A stretch of DNA of 32,000 bases from Candidatus Saccharimonadota bacterium (GTDB lineage: Bacteria > Bacillota_I > Bacilli_A > Mycoplasmatales > Hepatoplasmataceae). The notes beneath the pieces were generated by a model, which saw only the letters and a list, made by a program, of their open reading frames with translations, did no database searches and was not told where the DNA came from. The stretch covers positions 90,001 through 122,000 of the forward strand of contig AP027133.1 of assembly GCA_027925325.1 (NCBI GenBank), given 5' to 3'. The translations under genes and the position numbers were made by a program. Below, piece by piece: positions 4,700 to 32,000 of this stretch. Each line of letters opens with the position of its first letter. Within the stretch, counting starts at the first letter, position 1.

Positions 4700-5278
4700 A
4701 TGATAGATGTTGGGAGTTTATTACATGATAATTTAATAAATAAAGAAAGATTATTATTAAAGAAATATAAATTATTAGGTTTAAAAGAACAAGAAGTTTT
4801 ATTGATAATTTCAATCATAAATTTTGATTCAAGTGAAAATATATCACTTAATAAAATTGCAAAAGGACTTGATATTTCAAAATCTGATGTCGACAAAATT
4901 TTGACATCATTGGTACAACAAAAATTAATTAAAATTGATTTGCGTGGAAAAGAAATATCTTTTAATTTAAATAATTTGTGAGAAAGATTATTAAATCTTT
5001 ATTATATTCCCAATAATGATTCATCTAAAGAAGATCGATATTATTGATTTATTAAAAGAATGAATTTTAATAATGATACGGTAGTTAAAATTAAATTTGA
5101 AAATTGATTAGAGCAAAATCTCTGATCAAAAATTATTGAATTAATAGATAAATTGGAAAAATTTAATTTTAATTTTTCGATCTCTTGAACTGAATTTGAA
5201 AAAATAATTGATGCAAATATCAAACCATACAAGAAAGATATAAATCAAATTTTGCATACTAATTGATTAATTGAATAA
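4700..5278 (+). CDS. DnaD-domain replication initiation/primosome protein (DnaD-like)
   Basis: The N-terminal region (LLKKYKLLGLKEQEVLLIISI...SLNKIAKGLDISKSDVDKILTSLVQQKLIKI) resembles the DnaD winged-helix domain. The C-terminal part is Trp-containing and helical. GTG at 4688 is an alternative start. The frame is joined across several TGA codons. Confidence 0.55.
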
Positions 5279-5744
5279 AAAAGGAAGCAAATTCATTTAT
5301 ATTTGTTTTATAACCAATTTTCTTAATTTTTTGAATACTGATGCTTTTTTTATTATTAAATTCTGTGAAATTTAAATAATCAAAGATTTTAACAATTATT
5401 ATTAAGTTATTTTCTTTTTTCAATCTAAATAAAATAAATGATTTTCCGCCCAATTTATTAATCTTTATAAGTTGATTTATTTGATGTTCTTTTAATCTTC
5501 TTATTTCAAAACTATTACCAGAAATATCTTTTAATTCTAATAATATAAATTTTTTATTAAATATTCCAATAAAATCACAAAGTGCCTTTTGATAATAAAT
5601 ATATTTTTCCTCTTTTTTCTTAATAACTTTTTTTATTGGTGTGGGTGATTTAATAAAAAACCCTATTTCTTTTTTATTTATTTCTCTCAATTCTTTTTCA
5701 ATTGATAGTTCAAATTTTACATATTTATTATCTTTTTTGTTCAT
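5259..5744 (-). CDS. recU: Holliday junction resolvase RecU (short mollicute form)
   Basis: The core CDFIGIFNKKFILLELKD...EHQINQL...GGKSFILF matches the RecU pattern (DY.G...G....fEaK....f....i..hQ......gG.aF.li). The 3' end overlaps the convergent DnaD-like gene by 20 nt. Confidence 0.65.
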   Translation of the reverse strand: MNKKDNKYVKFELSIEKELREINKKEIGFFIKSPTPIKKVIKKKEEKYIYYQKALCDFIGIFNKKFILLELKDISGNSFEIRRLKEHQINQLIKINKLGGKSFILFRLKKENNLIIIVKIFDYLNFTEFNNKKSISIQKIKKIGYKTNINEFASFFIQLIN

Positions 5745-5795
5745 ATAATTAAATTAAAATAAATTGTTTTTGTTTTCTTATTTTTGTTTATTTTG

Positions 5796-5805: not shown

Positions 5806-6153
5806 ATGTTATCAACTGGTCGCAAAATATTAAAATGTTTTGAGGAAAGTCCATGCTAGCACTTGCTGAGATGCAAGTAATGTTTGTGGAGTAGGAAAAG
5901 ATAACTACTCAAGTAAGAGTAAACTTACTATGGCAAATTTTAATCTAAGGTTTTATAACTATGATTTAAATTGTGGTGCCACAGAGACGAGTTTGAAAGA
6001 AATTTCAAAGTGAAACGCGGTAAACCCCACAAGCTAGAAACCTAAATTATGGTAAGGGAATCAAAATAGGGAATTCAACCGATTTTTGAAATTAAGAATA
6101 TATTCTTAATTAGATAAATGATCAGATAAACAAAACATGGCTTATGGTAACAT
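5806..6153 (+). ncRNA. rnpB: RNase P RNA, type B (Firmicutes/Mollicutes type)
   Basis: Conserved GAGGAAAGTCCATGCT near the 5' end, GTGCCACAGAGACGAG and GTAAACCCCAC internal motifs, and ACAAAACATGGCTTA near the 3' end. The termini (atgttatca / tggtaacat) can pair as P1. Ends are approximate (+/-5 nt). Confidence 0.85.
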
Positions 6154-9993: not shown

Positions 9994-10061
9994 AATATTT
10001 GTCGTTTGGTCGACAAAACTTATAAAATAATTCTTTGAAAACTAAATAGAACCAGCAATTT

Positions 10062-11592
<1,531 letters not shown>

Positions 11593-11788
11593 ATGGAAAT
11601 TAGAAATTTATAACTTTTAATTATTAGGTTCTATTTAGTTTTGAGAGAGTTATTTCGTTTAACTTTAACTTTCTCAATATTAGCTCTTTGAAAACTATAT
11701 ATTTGTCAAATATTAATTAAAATAAGATTTTAATTAGGATATTCCAATAAAAAATTAAGCGCAAAAAGCATTTATGTTAATTCGATAT

Positions 11789-14717
<2,929 letters not shown>

Positions 14718-14858
14718 ATTATTTTTAGCTTGAATTTTTATTTTCCTGATAAACTTATTTTAATTTCATATCAACAAGTATATAGTTTTGAGAGAGTTAG
14801 TAACTTTTTCGATCATCATCGAGAATTATGATTGTAAATATTAATTTATAATTATAAT

Positions 14859-14967
14859 TGTCGGTGGCGATAATACTAAGGAAACACCTGACCCCATTCC
14901 GAACTCAGAAGTTAAGCTTAGAGATGCCGAAGGTAGTCGCAAGGCAAGAATAGGAAACTGCCGACTT
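14859..14967 (+). rRNA. rrf: 5S ribosomal RNA
   Basis: GTCGGTGGCGATA...CCGAACTCAGAAGTTAAGC...GCCGAC, with the termini pairing as helix I. Confidence 0.9.
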
Positions 14968-14988: not shown

Positions 14989-15014
14989 AAAAACACCTAA
15001 AAAGGTGTTTTTTT
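14989..15014. terminator. Rho-independent terminator after 5S, probably bidirectional
   Basis: The stem aaaaacacc / ggtgttttt with a taaaaa loop is flanked by an A-run and a T-run, so it could also terminate the convergent minus-strand gene that ends at 15051. Confidence 0.65.
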
Positions 15015-15050: not shown

Positions 15051-15617
15051 TTATGGTAAATTATATTTATTTAGAAATTCTTCTTCGATCTTTTTATGAT
15101 GCAATCTTAAATCTCATTTAAATCCTTCTTTTTTCAAGTAAATATTTCTTTTTCTTATTGAGTTATCTCTTGTAACATTAATTAACAAATGATGCAAATC
15201 AAAAATTATTGGATATATTATTCTTTCTTTTTTATTAATAATAGTTATTAATCTATCTTTTGCTTTTATTTTATATTGATATCATGAAATATTATCATTA
15301 TTCTCATCAATAAATTGTTCAATTTTTTCTCAAATAGAATTATATTTCCTTTCTAATAATTGTCTAATTACTTTTTCATCATTTTTATTTATTTCATGAT
15401 TACTATTACGTATAATTAAATTGTTTTTTTCTTTCTGTTGCTTAAAAATTTCTAAAATTTTATCTAAATATGCTTTTGTTAATTCACAATATTCATTATT
15501 TTTTTTATTAAATGTTTTATTATGTGCTTTCAATCTATGATCATCAAAATATTTAAGACAAATTAACCTAAAATTAATTTCTCAATTTCTTTTGTCTCTA
15601 ATTTTCCCTTGTCTCAT
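15051..15617 (-). CDS. Hypothetical protein of unrecognised family, directly downstream of and overlapping the Panacea-domain gene; candidate toxin/effector partner
   Basis: Under table 4 the frame is open for 188 codons from the ATG at 15617, which overlaps the upstream gene by 55 nt. It contains 4 in-frame TGA codons (one upstream of the alternative TTG start). An alternative TTG start at 15533 lies 30 nt after the upstream stop. Basic and helical-looking, with no motif I can assign. The start codon is uncertain. Confidence 0.5.
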
Positions 15618-16045
15618 TCTTCTATATATTTTTCATCTATTTTCTTTTTAGATATTTCATCTTCATCTAAATTTTTTCTTGCTTCTATTCATGCTTTATT
15701 TGCATGTGTTATATCAACCAATTTTCATTGATTGAAAGAAATATATTTTTCTATATATTTATCATATATTTTAAATTCCTCTTTACTTTCTTTAGATGGT
15801 AAAAAAGGTTCTAATTCATCATCATTATAAAAATATGGTCGAAAATAAGAATATGAATTTACATGTACAGGACCATTTATTCATGCTTCAAAATTAAAAT
15901 TTTCATCAAAGATGCTTTTTTCAAAATTATTTTTCTTTTCTTCATATCTAATTAGAAATAAAATTTTTTGTAATTTTATTGGTGATTCAATTTGATATTC
16001 TCTTACTATATATTTTGCAAATTCAATTATTTTATCTTTATTCAC
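15563..16045 (-). CDS. Panacea / DUF4065 domain protein (SocA/GepA/PanA antitoxin-like), 160 aa
   Basis: The hand translation gives ...IKLQKILFLIRYEE...FDENFNFEAWINGPVHVNSYSYF..., which matches the DUF4065 signature (LQKLlYfa...f.e.feAW.yGPV...lY). GTG start with AGGGGA upstream and an in-frame TAA immediately before it. Contains 4 TGA-Trp codons, one at the signature EAW (15881-15883). Not in the ORF track because of the TGAs. Confidence 0.7.
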
Positions 16046-16216
16046 TTAATTTATCCCCTTTAATTCGTTTCATTATAAATATATTCTTTTTTTCTTTTCT
16101 TTTCATATATTTTATATTAAATTTAATATTAAAAATTTCTCATGTTTTAGAAATAAATTTTATTCAAAACTATATAATTTTAAAATAAAATTAAAAAGAG
16201 ATAAAAAAAGTTTATT

Positions 16217-17134
16217 ATGAAAAATAAAATAATCACAGATGAAAAAAATAATATTTTAAATAATAGTGAAAAAAACTTTAATCAAAATGAAGAAAAAAAT
16301 AATTGAAATAAAATTTTTAAGAAAAAATTTTTAATTATTTTATCTTTAGTTTTTATTGCAATAATCATTATTATTTCTTTATCATTAACACTTACAAATA
16401 AAAATAAAGATAAATCAAATGTATTCTATGCTTATGGATCAGATTGTCCATATATAATTAATTATTCAGAAGAATATGTCGGTTATGGAAGAATAGGATT
16501 AGAAATATGTTTTGAACTTGATCCTAAATATGTTGCCGATGATCATATTTCTGTATATGAAATACCAAATGATGCTAATCAAGAACCGATTTTTATAAAA
16601 GAATATCCATTAGAATATACTACCTATGATGATGGATTATATCCAAATGGTTTATATAATACTTATCAATATGTTCCATATAATTTAAGCGATCATAATG
16701 AAAATTATTCTGTACAAGTTGACATTATGGATAAATCAAGTAGTGACTATATCGGAACAGCAGAGATTGAAAAATTAACTTTATATAATAATCGAAAACC
16801 GAATGGATTTACAATTAAAAATGTAAAAGATTATGGTGATTGTTATATGGAATATGATATCTTTTATCCCGAAGGAAGCGGGAGAATAGAAGAAGTCTAT
16901 CTTGAAGATCAATTTGGTAATGTTTTAAGTACAAGTAAACCGATTACATCACCATATTTTCATTATGATTATCGTGGATTTTTATATTTACCACCAAATT
17001 ATACTTCTGAACCACAAACTTATCGAATATATGCAAAATATTCTCATAATATTACTTCGTATGGAAGAATAACACAAGAATATCAAATTTTACTTGATGA
17101 TGAGATTATTGTTCTTCCGTTTGATCCTAATTAA
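16217..17134 (+). CDS. Hypothetical membrane-anchored (N-in, single TM) Tyr-rich extracellular protein, 305 aa
   Basis: ATG at 16217 is in frame with the track ORF 16727..17134, with one TGA at about 16304. TM segment FLIILSLVFIAIIIIISLSLTL with no lipobox Cys. The ectodomain appears to contain two related halves (GSDCPYIINYSEEYVGYGRIGLE... and YGDCYMEYDIFYPEGSGRIEE...). Confidence 0.6.
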
Positions 17135-23881: not shown

Positions 23882-24382
23882 TTAATAATTAGTATCTTGT
23901 CTTATAAAATTTATCTTATTTTTTATCTGATATGATTCTAATATTTCTGTAATTTTAAAATCATAATAAAGACTTATTTTTAATAAATTAATGAAAATAT
24001 CTTTTAAGATATTTTTTTCTTTTTTCTTCTGTAAATTTAAAATTAAATCAATTATTTTTAAAAACAAAATTTCAATATTTTCTTCTCTTTGATTAAATTC
24101 AAACTTTCATTGATCATATTGTAAATCGTTTGCAATTGAGATCAAAAAATGCATAATATCAACAAATTCATCGAGAATAATCTTTTTATCACTTGCTTTT
24201 TTCTTGGATCAATATTTAAAAAATCTTAATTCATTTGCAAATTCTGCTAATTCTACAAAAAGAGCGATGATTTTTTTGTTAAATATTTGCTCATTATCTT
24301 TTAAATTATTTCTTTTTAATATATATTGATCGAGGATTTTTTGTTGATCTGAAATATTTTTAAGATTTATTTTAATTATCAT
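23882..24382 (-). CDS. All-alpha NTP pyrophosphohydrolase, dimeric-dUTPase-like (dUTPase_2/MazG-like fold), 166 aa
   Basis: The hand translation gives LFVELAEFANE...KYW(TGA)S...ILDEFVDIMHFLISIAN, the ExxE...ExxD acidic pattern of dimeric dUTPases. It abuts the cdd stop codon tail-to-tail and sits in a pyrimidine-nucleotide gene cluster. Confidence 0.55.
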
Positions 24383-24503
24383 AATTAAATCTTACATTAA
24401 TAATTTATAAATTATTAAAGATTGATTTTTTTGATTTAAAATTGATAAAATCTATTTATTACTAATATAGTTGTAATAAGAATTAAAGGAAATATTTATA
24501 AAA

Positions 24504-30846: not shown

Positions 30847-31971
30847 TTAATAGTTAAAAAATCTAATTGCTTTATTTTGATCTTTTATATCATATTTATC
30901 AGAAAAATCTTTAATTATGATCTCTTGAATTTTATTTCTTGTTAATTTACTTCTTGGATGTCTTTTTACTTGTTGATCATCCAATTCTTTAATTGATAGA
31001 ATATTTTCTATTTTTTTTGTTAATTCAATTTCACTCATGTTATAATTTATTATTTTATTTTTCAAATATAAATTAAATATTACATAAAAATATAATGGCG
31101 ATTCCATTCTTTTATTATCTAAGTTTTTCAATGCAATATTATATGAATTTATTAATATATTTAATTTTTGAATAAATTCATTTCTTAATTTTAAATTATT
31201 TAATTTATTAAAATTAATAGTTTCATCTGAAAATCTTTTATAATAATTTCTTAGATTAGTGGCTGAGCCATCTTCCATTTTAAATTCTTTGCTTTCGAAC
31301 ATCATTATTAAATATGTCAAAAATTCTAAGACACCCATTCTCTTTTCTTGATTTAAACTAAATAATTTGTGTTTTTCCCCATACATTTTTTTGTAAAATA
31401 TTTCATTTTGAGTACTTCTTAAAAATTTACATAATTCACTTGGATAAATTGACATTCTTACTTCTTGTGCATTTAAATTAATTCCACCTGTGTTTAATCT
31501 TTCGAAAATATTATATAAATTTTGATCTTCTTCAACATTATTATCATTTTTATATAAATAACAAACACTAATTCTTAATTCTTTAAATTCATTTTGTTCT
31601 TTTTGGTCTAATTCATTAAATTTTAATCCCTCATATTTATTAACAGCAGGAATTTTTCCTGAATTTTTAAAATCTATTTTTCCATTAATATAATTTAAAA
31701 TTGTTGTCAATCTTTGTCTTCCATCTAAAACTTTTAATTCTTTAAATCTTAAATCTTTTTCTCCGTCTTTAAATTCTTTTTCAAATCAATGATTTGAAAA
31801 AATGACAACAGAAGGCATTGGAAGATTTTCTCATAATGTGGATATTAAAAGATCCTGCTTTTTCGTATTTCAAATAAAATTTCTTTGAATTTCATGTTCG
31901 AAAAAATCTGAATATAACTTGCTAAATTTTTCGATATCCTTTATTTTAACATTTCTATAAATATATTTCAT
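30847..31971 (-). CDS. DUF262 (ParB/Srx-fold, GmrSD N-terminal-like) domain protein without an obvious DUF1524/HNH nuclease domain, 374 aa
   Basis: The hand-extended N-terminus gives ...HEIQRNFIW(TGA)NTKKQDLLISTLW...VLDGRQRLTTILNYI...FERLNTGGINLNAQE, matching the DUF262 motifs (QRxxxW, DGQQRLT, lN.gG..L). It has three TGA-Trp codons in the N-terminal part. Its stop lies 8 nt from the upp stop (convergent). Confidence 0.7.
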
Positions 31972-32000
31972 TTTTGCTAATTTTAAATTCCCCTTAGTTT

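What the first reader, a model, noticed from the sequence alone, without database searches (positions are those of the whole stretch)
15051..16045. Candidate PanA (Panacea/DUF4065) antitoxin-like gene with an overlapping partner of unknown family, next to the rRNA operon
- **Hidden genes:** two minus-strand genes are invisible or truncated in the standard-code ORF track and appear only when TGA is read as Trp.
- **Upstream gene (15563-16045):** it carries the DUF4065/Panacea signature (LQKILFL...FEAWINGPVHVNSY).
- **What the domain implies:** Panacea is described as a promiscuous antitoxin domain (SocA; PanA of PanAT pairs) that is paired with many unrelated toxin families, often novel ones.
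- **Downstream gene (15051-15617):** it either overlaps the first by 55 nt or starts at a TTG 30 nt after it. It encodes about 160-188 aa, is basic, and has no motif I can place. I saw no Fic, RelE, Zeta or RSH signature, and only a non-canonical RNSNH.
- **Significance:** a two-gene, tightly coupled, antitoxin-first arrangement in a reduced mollicute genome makes the partner a plausible undescribed toxin/effector domain.
- **Residence in a TGA=Trp host:** both genes use TGA-Trp, one at the signature Trp, so they are adapted to such a host rather than freshly imported from a standard-code donor.
Basis: partly seen in the sequence, partly recalled or inferred. Interest (0 to 1): 0.75.

Follow-up and report, generated by a model that had tools for sequence, protein, structure and literature searches.

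The report
Panacea antitoxin with RelE/YoeB-like partner
Two overlapping genes next to the ribosomal RNA operon of the woodlouse symbiont Candidatus Hepatoplasma scabrum look like a toxin-antitoxin pair: a confirmed Panacea-domain antitoxin and an unclassified partner that is probably a distant RelE/YoeB-type RNA-cutting toxin, so this is another example of a known kind of system, not a new one.

Summary
The window is Ca. Hepatoplasma scabrum (26% GC, TGA read as Trp).

- **Gene 1:** 15563-16045(-) encodes a 160-aa acidic protein. It matches Pfam PF13274 (SocA_Panacea) above the curated cut-off.
- **Gene 2:** 15051-15617(-) overlaps gene 1 by 55 nt and encodes a 188-aa basic protein. It matches nothing in Pfam, NCBIfam, PADLOC or PHROGs.
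- **Codon use:** each gene has four TGA-Trp codons. Under the standard code only 54-aa and 67-aa fragments appear.
- **Conservation:** the pair is intact, always Panacea gene first, in other Hepatoplasma genomes, in unnamed low-GC (17-23%) assemblies and in Metamycoplasma sualvi. H. crinochetorum Ps has two paralogous pairs. The two proteins diverge in step.
- **Partner family:** it is tiny (15 clusters) and absent from phage and plasmid collections. Its invariant residues are H74, R122, P136, D140, H143 and W168.
- **Fold of the partner:** several weak lines agree that its core (about residues 70-145) is RelE/YoeB-like. None is significant by the search tools' own E-values, though the profile match to YoeB beat every shuffle and control.

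Best reading: a PanA-PanT type II toxin-antitoxin module whose toxin is a divergent, extended RelE/YoeB-superfamily RNase. Toxicity and neutralisation are untested. Panacea pairings with HigB/YoeB-like toxins, and PanAT pairs in mollicutes, are already catalogued (Kurata 2022), so this is a new member of a known kind.

The parts
15563..16045 (-). panA: 160-aa acidic (pI 5.3) stand-alone Panacea-domain protein, HPPSJP_0980. GTG start, four TGA-Trp codons.
   Evidence: Table-4 translation. PF13274 scores 35.3 bits against a cut-off of 25.7. phrog_1281 E 8e-23. Homologues at 39-71% identity sit next to the partner family elsewhere.
15689..15973 (-). Panacea domain proper (PanA residues 25-119).
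   Evidence: Pfam envelope, residues 25-119 against profile positions 1-112 of 113.
15051..15617 (-). Partner (putative panT): 188-aa basic (pI 9.7) protein, HPPSJP_0970. ATG start, four TGA-Trp codons, no described family.
   Evidence: Translation. No Pfam, NCBIfam, PADLOC or PHROG family. 15-member family with invariant H74, R122, P136, D140, H143 and W168. pI.
15183..15410 (-). Putative RelE/YoeB-like core of the partner (about residues 70-145). Candidate catalytic codons: H74 at 15396-15398, R122 at 15252-15254, D140 at 15198-15200, H143 at 15189-15191.
   Evidence: AF2 topology b1-a1-a2-b2-b3-b4. Foldseek top matches are YoeB and HigB. Profile against PDB finds YoeB at E about 0.2. hhalign against a YoeB MSA scores 21.9, above 300 of 300 shuffles and level with RelE, YafQ and HigB.
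15563..15617 (-). 55-nt overlap of the 3' end of panA with the 5' end of the partner, read in two frames.
   Evidence: Coordinates. The orthologous overlap is 52 nt in H. crinochetorum Ps pair 2, 32 nt in L008 and 20 nt in pair 1. Distant members have gaps of 10-14 nt. The partner's W12 region is conserved even where there is no overlap.
16046..16204 (-). Upstream intergenic region shared with the divergent 309-aa gene. It holds the GGGG Shine-Dalgarno-like run at 16055-16058 and only weak promoter-like hexamers.
   Evidence: Sequence. Promoter-like sites are no more frequent than in shuffled sequence.
14989..15012 (.). Hairpin terminator between the 5S rRNA gene and the stop codon of the pair. 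It was called on the + strand. The stem is palindromic and has A/T runs on both sides, so it may serve both convergent units.
   Evidence: Terminator scan: 10-bp stem followed by a T run; 0.1 sites expected by chance.

Best explanation
The two genes form a chromosomal PanA-PanT type II toxin-antitoxin module.

- **Antitoxin:** the acidic, stand-alone Panacea protein (PanA) is made first. It is inferred to bind and neutralise the basic partner protein directly.
- **Toxin:** the partner is inferred to be a much-diverged, enlarged member of the RelE/YoeB (RelE/ParE-fold) superfamily.
  - It has a beta-alpha-alpha-beta-beta-beta core at about residues 70-145.
  - The invariant R122 and H143 fall on YoeB's catalytic Arg65 and His83.
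  - It has a family-specific extension of about 65 aa at the N terminus (near-invariant F24, H32, N33) and of about 40 aa at the C terminus (invariant W168).
- **Proposed action:** when PanA is lost or displaced, the partner would cut mRNA on the ribosome and stop translation. The outcome would be growth arrest, abortive infection or locus addiction.

**Shown here:**
- the domain identity of PanA;
- conservation, co-divergence and intactness of the pair;
- the acidic/basic charge split.

**Inferred:**
- the RelE/YoeB fold (weak but convergent evidence);
- RNase activity;
- toxicity;
- neutralisation by direct binding.
For: **PanA is a Panacea protein.** PF13274 scores above the gathering cut-off.

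**The pair is conserved.** The order is always Panacea gene then partner, with spacing from -55 to +14 nt. It is seen in:
- H. crinochetorum Ps, as two paralogous pairs (L001);
- L003, L004, L006, L007, L008 and L009;
- Metamycoplasma sualvi, next to an IS30-like transposase (L094).

**The two genes are inherited as a unit.** PanA and partner identity matrices correlate at r = 0.86.

**Both genes are intact and under constraint.** dN/dS is below 1: PanA 0.05-0.33, partner 0.38-0.72.

**Charge split.** pI is 5.3 for PanA and 9.7 for the partner.

**Evidence on the partner's fold:**
- The AF2 models have the beta-alpha-alpha-beta-beta-beta order. pLDDT is 68.6 for the full protein and 76.6 for the core.
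- Foldseek's top PDB match to the full model is Sa2YoeB 7v5y_E (probability 0.90, TM by target 0.65). RelE, HigB2, HP0892 and PfiT also appear in the list.
- Foldseek's top match to the core model is HigB 5ycl_D.
- The family HMM run against PDB sequences finds four distinct YoeB sequences at E about 0.2. They align 'YYQlkInkkeRLIf' with 'YSRRINHQHRVVY'.
- hhalign against a 58-sequence YoeB alignment gives score 21.9, P 0.0014. This exceeds all 300 column shuffles (mean 10.1, sd 1.9, maximum 17.2).
- On the same test E. coli RelE, YafQ and HigB score 20.6-22.0. Six unrelated proteins and the PanA alignment score 7.0-13.5.

**Precedent.** Kurata 2022 Dataset S1 lists Panacea paired with HigB-2/YoeB/ParE-like toxin clusters T14 and T28.
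Against: **The search tools' own E-values do not support the fold assignment.**
- Foldseek gives no match at E <= 0.001. The best is E 0.19.
- The core-only model superposes poorly: TM 0.34-0.37, rmsd 8-9 A.
- No member of the family reaches Pfam YoeB_toxin or ParE_toxin at E <= 10.
- The family consensus hits HigB-like_toxin only at E 0.63. That is behind noise-level hits to DUF4422 and Pre-PUA.
- hhalign probability is only 11-17%, and the confident alignment covers just 23-24 columns.

**Rival folds appear.** GNAT proteins (RibT, AAC(6')) and Pre-PUA/MCT-1 occur in the same Foldseek lists.

**The AF2 alignment is shallow.** It has 15 sequences, and the segment holding D140-H143 is modelled with low confidence.

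**The partner evolves fast.** dN/dS reaches 0.72, which could reflect relaxed constraint.

**Nothing functional was tested.** Toxicity, complex formation and RNase activity are all untested.

**Size.** At 188 aa the partner is about twice the length of canonical RelE/YoeB toxins.
Confidence: 0.5

Rival explanations
1. It is a PanA-PanT toxin-antitoxin pair, but the partner is a new toxin fold or activity. The RelE/YoeB resemblance would then be convergent topology, a common beta-alpha-alpha-beta-beta-beta sandwich. The conserved His/Arg/Asp/His set together with the N-terminal His-Asn motif would form a different catalytic site.
For: - No described family matches the partner at any accepted threshold.
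- No Foldseek match reaches significance, and TM for the core model is only about 0.35.
- Half of the protein lies outside the putative core, yet it carries near-invariant residues F24, H32, N33 and W168.
- Kurata 2022 found that 938 of 1,268 predicted PanT toxins had no domain hit.
Against: - Structure search, HMM against PDB sequences and profile-profile comparison all single out the same toxin superfamily, in the same alignment register.
- The profile score equals that of true superfamily members and exceeds every control.
Confidence: 0.25
2. It is not a toxin-antitoxin system. The Panacea protein and its partner form a conserved two-gene unit with another role, and the partner is not toxic. 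One possibility is an RNA- or ribosome-binding protein, as the weak Pre-PUA resemblance hints. Another is a sensor-effector pair with a role specific to the symbiosis.
For: - In Hepatoplasma the pair sits at a fixed chromosomal position next to gatCAB, a CNNM gene and the 309-aa gene. This looks more like vertical inheritance than a mobile addiction module.
- Kurata 2022 list 1,004 Panacea proteins without a reliably predicted toxin partner.
- Pre-PUA is the best, though sub-threshold, Pfam hit at E 0.011. MCT-1 and PH0734.1 appear in the Foldseek lists.
Against: - The features are the classic ones of type II TA pairs: antitoxin first, tight linkage or overlap, and an acidic/basic charge split.
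- The module also occurs in unrelated contexts next to transposases (L006, L094).
- H. crinochetorum Ps carries two copies, whereas L007, L008 and the window each show one pair at this locus, of one type or the other.
- The partner evolves fast.
- Only one of the 15 family members hits Pre-PUA.
Confidence: 0.15
3. The partner has the RelE/ParE fold but acts like ParE, poisoning DNA gyrase, and does not act as an RNase.
For: - The fold is shared by RelE-type RNases and ParE. The ParE-family toxin PfiT appears in the Foldseek list.
- Kurata 2022 report ParE among Panacea partners.
Against: - The best matches are RNase members: YoeB, HigB and RelE.
- The invariant Arg and His fall on YoeB's catalytic Arg65 and His83 in the global alignment.
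- From general knowledge, ParE proteins lack such a catalytic set.
Confidence: 0.07
4. The partner is a GNAT-type acetyltransferase toxin like TacT or AtaT, which acetylate aminoacyl-tRNA.
For: - RibT, AAC(6') and other GNAT structures recur in both Foldseek lists.
- The size, about 180 aa, is similar to GNAT toxins.
Against: - The sequence after strand b4 has no acetyl-CoA pyrophosphate-binding motif (Q/R-x-x-G-x-G/A), as read directly from the alignment.
- The model has no strands b5 or b6, only two C-terminal helices.
- No GNAT family appears in Pfam even at E <= 10.
Confidence: 0.03

Closest known systems
PanA-PanT (Panacea/DUF4065) type II toxin-antitoxin systems (Kurata et al. 2022, PMC8832971; Ernits et al. 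2023, PMC10440598)
   Same: - The antitoxin is a Panacea-domain protein with no N-terminal domain.
- It is encoded immediately upstream of an unrelated small basic protein, with tight linkage or overlap.
- The two-gene architecture is conserved across genomes.
- Panacea is known to pair with mRNA-interferase toxins, including clusters with HigB-2/YoeB/ParE-like HHpred hits.
- PanAT pairs are already predicted in Spiroplasma, Mycoplasma, Ureaplasma and Phytoplasma.
   Different: - No Hepatoplasma entry was found in the held part of Dataset S1, which was cut when stored.
- I could not test whether the partner belongs to their mollicute clusters T1 or T22, because those sequences were not retrievable.
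- Toxicity and neutralisation are untested here.
- The position is chromosomal and fixed across the Hepatoplasma assemblies examined here.
YefM-YoeB / RelBE / HigBA (RelE/ParE-fold ribosome-dependent mRNA endonuclease toxins)
   Same: - The predicted order of secondary-structure elements is beta-alpha-alpha-beta-beta-beta.
- The hairpin motif '[YF]-x-x-[KR]-I-x-x-x-x-R-L-[IV]-[YF]' is shared.
- The invariant Arg and the His just after the last core strand align with YoeB Arg65 and His83.
- The toxin is basic and is encoded after its antitoxin.
   Different: - The antitoxin is Panacea, not a Phd/YefM, RelB or HigA protein.
- The partner is about twice as long (188 aa against 84-95 aa), with conserved N- and C-terminal extensions.
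- There is no significant Pfam, Foldseek or PDB-sequence match.
- YoeB Glu46 and Tyr84 have no clear counterparts.
SocA-SocB (Caulobacter type VI TA; NCBIfam NF047745)
   Same: SocA is the founding Panacea-domain antitoxin. PanA here matches the SocA model weakly (E 5.7e-8).
   Different: - The score of 32.6 bits is far below the equivalog cut-off of 190.
- The partner shows no resemblance to SocB.
- SocA works as a ClpXP adaptor and not as a direct inhibitor (general knowledge).

Membership tests
Panacea / DUF4065 domain (Pfam PF13274) | Whole-protein score at or above Pfam's gathering cut-off | tested here: met
   35.3 bits against a cut-off of 25.7, E 2.4e-8, covering profile positions 1-112 of 113. 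The database's precomputed annotation also lists PF13274.
SocA antitoxin, type VI TA (NCBIfam NF047745 equivalog) | Score at or above the equivalog cut-off of 190 bits | tested here: not met
   32.6 bits. It has a SocA-like domain but is not a SocA equivalog.
PanAT type II toxin-antitoxin system | A Panacea gene adjacent to, and on the same strand as, a partner gene, with the two-gene architecture conserved across genomes (the criterion used by Kurata 2022) | tested here: met
   Nine further loci, ten pairs in all, in Hepatoplasma, unnamed low-GC assemblies and Metamycoplasma sualvi. The order is always PanA then partner, with spacing from -55 to +14 nt. The two proteins co-diverge, r = 0.86.
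PanAT type II toxin-antitoxin system | The partner is toxic when expressed alone | not testable with these tools
   Needs expression of the gene recoded from TGA to TGG.
PanAT type II toxin-antitoxin system | PanA neutralises the toxin by forming a direct complex | not testable with these tools
   No multimer prediction or binding assay was available. Only the charge complementarity is known (pI 5.3 and 9.7).
RelE/ParE superfamily (YoeB, RelE, HigB, YafQ) | Significant sequence or profile match to a family model | tested here: inconclusive
   - Pfam: no YoeB or ParE hit at E <= 10 for any member. The consensus hits HigB-like_toxin at E 0.63.
- PDB sequences: YoeB at E about 0.2.
- hhalign against a YoeB MSA: P 0.0014, probability 17%.
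- That score is above 300 of 300 shuffles and equal to RelE, YafQ and HigB scored the same way.
RelE/ParE superfamily (YoeB, RelE, HigB, YafQ) | Fold: an N-terminal strand, a two-helix hairpin, then a three- or four-stranded antiparallel sheet | tested here: met
   AF2 models place b1 at 74-75, a1 at 78-91, a2 at 93-106, b2 at 110-116, b3 at 122-128 and b4 at 133-138. This is a predicted structure of moderate confidence only.
RelE/ParE superfamily (YoeB, RelE, HigB, YafQ) | Significant three-dimensional superposition on a solved member | tested here: inconclusive
   YoeB and HigB rank first, but at E 0.19 and 0.31. TM is 0.65 normalised by the target for the full model and only 0.34-0.37 for the core model. 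No match reaches E <= 0.001.
RelE/ParE superfamily (YoeB, RelE, HigB, YafQ) | Catalytic residues on strand b3 and at the C-terminal end of the core (YoeB Arg65 and His83) | tested here: inconclusive
   The invariant R122 aligns with YoeB Arg65 in the local and global alignments. The invariant H143 aligns with His83 only in the low-confidence global alignment. The roles of the YoeB residues are taken from general knowledge.
GNAT acetyltransferase toxins (TacT/AtaT) | Acetyl-CoA-binding Q/R-x-x-G-x-G/A motif and strands b5-b6 | tested here: not met
   The family alignment has no such motif. The model has only helices after b4. Pfam gives no GNAT hit.

The most novel reading that the evidence does not exclude
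The partner is not a RelE/YoeB relative. It would be a new toxin or effector domain confined to TGA=Trp Mycoplasmoidales, using its invariant H74/R122/D140/H143 together with the N-terminal H32-N33 motif for an undescribed activity. Its retention at one chromosomal position through Hepatoplasma speciation, with two alternative allelic types, would reflect a domesticated role such as regulated growth arrest or phage defence in a roughly 600-kb symbiont genome.
Probability: 0.15. Interest if true: 0.55.

Novelty: new member of a known kind. Interest (0 to 1): 0.3.

Why it matters
- **Genome annotation.** The pair adds a toxin-antitoxin or defence-type module to the Hepatoplasmataceae. [quoted passage not shown]
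- **Range of Panacea partners.** It extends them to a small toxin family found only in Mycoplasmoidales, which no Pfam, NCBIfam, PADLOC or PHROG model covers.
- **If the RelE/YoeB assignment holds.** The family would show how far that fold can drift and grow, to twice the usual length with conserved extensions, while keeping an Arg/His pair.
- **Practical point.** Both genes are invisible under the standard genetic code. TA and defence surveys that do not use translation table 4 will miss such modules.
- **Limits.** None of this changes the current picture of PanAT systems. Its value is as an annotation and as one more candidate for the standard toxicity-neutralisation assay.

Tried and rejected
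**Family libraries.** Pfam, NCBIfam, PADLOC and PHROGs were scanned with the partner, with all 15 family members and with the family consensus. Nothing reached threshold. The best hits were noise-level: Pre-PUA E 0.011, AbiEi E 0.012, DUF4422 E 0.007 and HigB-like E 0.63.

**Exhaustive phmmer search of 1.84 billion representative proteins.**
- It found only four real relatives.
- It also found one spurious 2,270-aa coiled-coil repeat protein, P0010, which I rejected as low-complexity.

**Structure searches.**
- Foldseek against viral structures (BFVD) gave nothing meaningful.
- Re-predicting only the core, to sharpen the Foldseek search, raised pLDDT to 76.6. Superposition did not improve: TM about 0.35.
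- 4gxt_A was the top profile hit among PDB sequences. I rejected it because the match covers only the lysine/glutamate-rich helical stretch.

**Rejected readings of the partner.**
- GNAT toxin: there is no acetyl-CoA motif and no strands b5-b6.
- HNH or other nuclease, suggested by the 'RNSNH' and 'HNK' motifs: no library support.

**Mobility.** The partner has no match in the phage, plasmid or IMG/VR collections. Phage or plasmid origin is therefore not supported. Transposases do flank two distant copies.

**PanA structure.** PanA has no solved-structure relative by sequence.

**Selection.** dN/dS values are below 1. In a 26% GC genome dS is unreliable, so I do not lean on them.

**Start codon.** I considered the TTG at 15533 as an alternative start and rejected it. 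Residues 12-40 (W12, F24, H32, N33) are conserved across the family, including members whose genes do not overlap.
Full report
**1. What the window is**

The sequence has 26.5% G+C and is packed with ORFs only when TGA is read as Trp. Both proteins of the finding are identical to annotated hypothetical proteins of Candidatus Hepatoplasma scabrum, HPPSJP_0980 and HPPSJP_0970, on a 606-kb contig. This organism is a mollicute from the midgut glands of the woodlouse Porcellio scaber (PMC10928387). Rfam places a complete 16S-23S-5S operon at 10060-14966 on the plus strand and RNase P RNA at 5808-6148. No tRNA gene lies in the window.

**2.

- **Gene 1.** With table 4, 15563-16045(-) is a 160-codon ORF. 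It starts at a GTG that directly follows an in-frame TAA, with a GGGG run 9-12 nt upstream.
- **Gene 2.** 15051-15617(-) is a 188-codon ORF from ATG 15617. It overlaps the first gene by 55 nt.
- **Codon use.** Each gene contains four TGA codons. One encodes the Trp of FEAWINGP in gene 1, and one encodes the family-invariant W168 in gene 2.
- **Standard code.** Only 54-aa and 67-aa fragments are listed.
- **Terminator.** A hairpin at 14989-15012 separates the pair from the convergent 5S rRNA gene. Chance expectation is 0.1 such sites.
- **Promoter.** Promoter-like hexamers upstream are no more frequent than in shuffled sequence, so I make no promoter claim.

**3. Gene 1 is a Panacea-domain protein**

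- Pfam PF13274 (SocA_Panacea) scores 35.3 bits against a gathering cut-off of 25.7, covering the whole profile.
- PHROG 1281 matches at E 8e-23.
- The NCBIfam SocA equivalog scores 32.6 bits against a cut-off of 190. The protein therefore has the domain but is not SocA.
- It has no extra N-terminal domain. It is acidic (pI 5.3) and has no sequence relative among solved structures.

**4. Gene 2 belongs to no described family, but it is a real, conserved gene**

- Pfam, NCBIfam, PADLOC and PHROGs give only noise.
- A word-indexed search found only the protein itself. An exhaustive phmmer search of 1.84 billion representatives found four true relatives plus one spurious repeat protein.
- A profile search raised the family to 15 clusters.
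- Their alignment has invariant H74, R122, P136, D140, H143 and W168, and near-invariant F24, H32, N33, I124 and F139.
- The family is absent from the phage, plasmid and IMG/VR collections.
- Among GTDB representative genomes it was found only in H. crinochetorum and Metamycoplasma sualvi. Two metagenome contigs also carry it.

**5. The pair is a conserved unit**

Wherever the gene upstream of the partner could be read, it is a homologue of the window's Panacea protein.

- **Same locus in Hepatoplasma.** The pair lies beside the gatCAB genes, a CNNM transporter gene and a roughly 308-aa membrane-anchored protein (L001, L007, L008). The window has the same neighbours: the 309-aa gene at 16205-17134, then gatC, gatA and gatB.
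- **Two pairs in one genome.** H. crinochetorum Ps carries two paralogous pairs flanking the 308-aa gene.
- **Two lineages.** The pairs fall into a type 1 and a type 2. The window and L007 have type 2 and L008 has type 1.
- **Other contexts.** More distant copies lie elsewhere. L009 sits beside ABC-transporter genes and mraZ/rsmH. L006 sits beside IS256-type transposase fragments. The M. sualvi copy sits beside an IS30-like transposase.
- **Spacing.** It ranges from a 55-nt overlap to a 14-nt gap.
- **Co-divergence.** Pairwise identities of the Panacea proteins and of the partners correlate at r = 0.86, so the two genes travel together.
- **Rates.** The partner evolves about three times faster at non-synonymous sites. 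dN/dS is 0.38-0.72 for the partner against 0.05-0.33 for PanA. It stays intact everywhere. dS is unreliable at this base composition.
- **Start codon.** The ATG at 15617 is the right start. W12, F24, H32 and N33 are conserved even in members whose genes do not overlap.

**6. What the partner probably is**

AlphaFold2 with the 15-sequence alignment gives a moderate model (pLDDT 68.6, pTM 0.67). Its best-defined part is strand 74-75, helices 78-91 and 93-106, and strands 110-116, 122-128 and 133-138. Two C-terminal helices follow. The core alone gives the same element order at pLDDT 76.6. This is the order of elements in RelE/YoeB/HigB toxins (general knowledge).

Evidence pointing to the RelE/YoeB superfamily:
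- **Foldseek, full model.** S. aureus YoeB ranks first (7v5y_E, E 0.19, probability 0.90, TM 0.65 by target). RelE, HigB2, HP0892 and the ParE-like PfiT are also listed.
- **Foldseek, core model.** HigB ranks first (5ycl_D, E 0.31) and YoeB ranks 7-9, but TM is only about 0.35.
- **HMM against PDB sequences.** Independently of structure, the family HMM picks out four distinct YoeB sequences at E about 0.2. They align 'YYQlkInkkeRLIf' with 'YSRRINHQHRVVY'.
- **Profile-profile comparison.** I built a 58-sequence YoeB alignment from IMG/VR loci and compared profiles. The score was 21.9, P 0.0014, over the same hairpin.
- **Shuffle control.** All 300 column shuffles of the partner alignment scored lower (mean 10.1, sd 1.9, maximum 17.2).
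- **Calibration.** E. coli RelE, YafQ and HigB score 20.6-22.0 against the same YoeB alignment. Six unrelated small proteins and the PanA alignment score 7.0-13.5.
  - Only YoeB was checked, through its 55-66% identical tblastn hits.
- **Residue mapping.** In the global alignment the invariant R122 falls on YoeB Arg65 and the invariant H143 on His83. Both are catalytic residues of YoeB (general knowledge).

Evidence on the other side:
- No Foldseek match reaches E <= 0.001.
- No Pfam YoeB, ParE or HigB hit is significant.
- hhalign probability is below 20%.
- GNAT and Pre-PUA structures share the Foldseek lists.

I reject the GNAT reading because the acetyl-CoA motif and strands b5-b6 are missing.

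I conclude that a divergent, extended RelE/YoeB-like core is the most likely reading, at roughly two chances in three given that the pair is a TA system. It is not established.

**7. How it most likely works**

- **Module type.** It is a type II PanA-PanT module.
- **Neutralisation (inferred).** The acidic Panacea protein binds and neutralises the basic partner (pI 9.7). For stand-alone Panacea antitoxins, Ernits et al. 2023 showed direct neutralisation through the Panacea fold (PMC10440598).
- **Toxin action (inferred).** When freed, the partner would cleave mRNA on the ribosome, using R122 and H143 and perhaps H74 and D140.
- **PanA tail (speculative).** The type 2 PanA proteins have an extra charged C-terminal tail, encoded by the overlap region. 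It could act as a linear neutralising element like Phd-C.
- **Biological role (unknown).** Phage defence or locus addiction are the usual options.

**8. Comparison with what is known, and novelty**

- Kurata et al. 2022 predicted 1,268 PanAT pairs with at least 88 toxin-domain combinations (PMC8832971).
- Their list includes mRNA interferases, and clusters T14 and T28 have HigB-2/YoeB/ParE-like HHpred hits.
- It also includes pairs in Spiroplasma, Mycoplasma, Ureaplasma and Phytoplasma.
- No Hepatoplasma entry appears in the held part of their dataset.
- The Hepatoplasma genome paper does not mention the pair.
- UniRef already labels the H. crinochetorum homologue 'Antitoxin SocA-...'.

The finding is therefore a correct and useful annotation: a new member of a known kind, with a lineage-restricted toxin family that no library covers. 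Interest is modest at 0.3.

Noticed in passing
L001 6001-7024 and 8137-9116 (H. crinochetorum Ps); L007, L008: H. crinochetorum Ps has two paralogous Panacea+partner pairs flanking the 308-aa gene. Other Hepatoplasma-like assemblies carry only type 2 (the window, L007) or only type 1 (L008) at the same locus. The locus therefore appears to hold alternative or duplicated module types.
   Followed up: partly
L001 8565-9116 versus L003 1554-2105: The two assemblies are otherwise nearly identical: PanA 99% and the 308-aa gene 99% amino-acid identity. Yet the type 2 partner gene is only 87% identical (dN/dS 0.72), and the alignment ends at the gene's 3' end. This suggests a recombination breakpoint or local rapid evolution at the toxin gene.
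   Followed up: partly
L005 129-539 and 606-1304: A Panacea homologue 51% identical to the window's PanA is followed by a different, unrelated downstream gene of more than 233 aa, not by the partner family. This may be an example of Panacea partner swapping among close relatives.
   Followed up: no
window 16205-17134 (+): A 309-aa protein with an N-terminal transmembrane segment and no Pfam family is transcribed divergently from the pair. It is conserved next to the pair in all the Hepatoplasma loci examined, but is absent from the distant copies. It is probably just a neighbour.
   Followed up: partly
window 30847-31998 (-): This ORF carries a GmrSD_N (DUF262) restriction-endonuclease N-terminal domain (E 3e-21). 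It is a possible type IV restriction or defence gene and runs close to the end of the window.
   Followed up: no
window 10060-14966 (+): The 16S-23S-5S operon has no tRNA gene in the spacer or anywhere else in the 32-kb window. RNase P RNA (class B) lies at 5808-6148.
   Followed up: no
window 5259-5753 (-) and 23882-24391 (-): These are small ORFs that could have looked orphan but are ordinary: RecU Holliday-junction resolvase (E 2e-16) and a dimeric dUTPase_2 (E 2e-39).
   Followed up: yes
L094 3411-4514 and 4686-5024 (Metamycoplasma sualvi): The M. sualvi copy of the module lies beside an IS30-like transposase-sized ORF and a small minus-strand ORF of unknown function. This suggests that the copy is on or near mobile DNA.
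   Followed up: no
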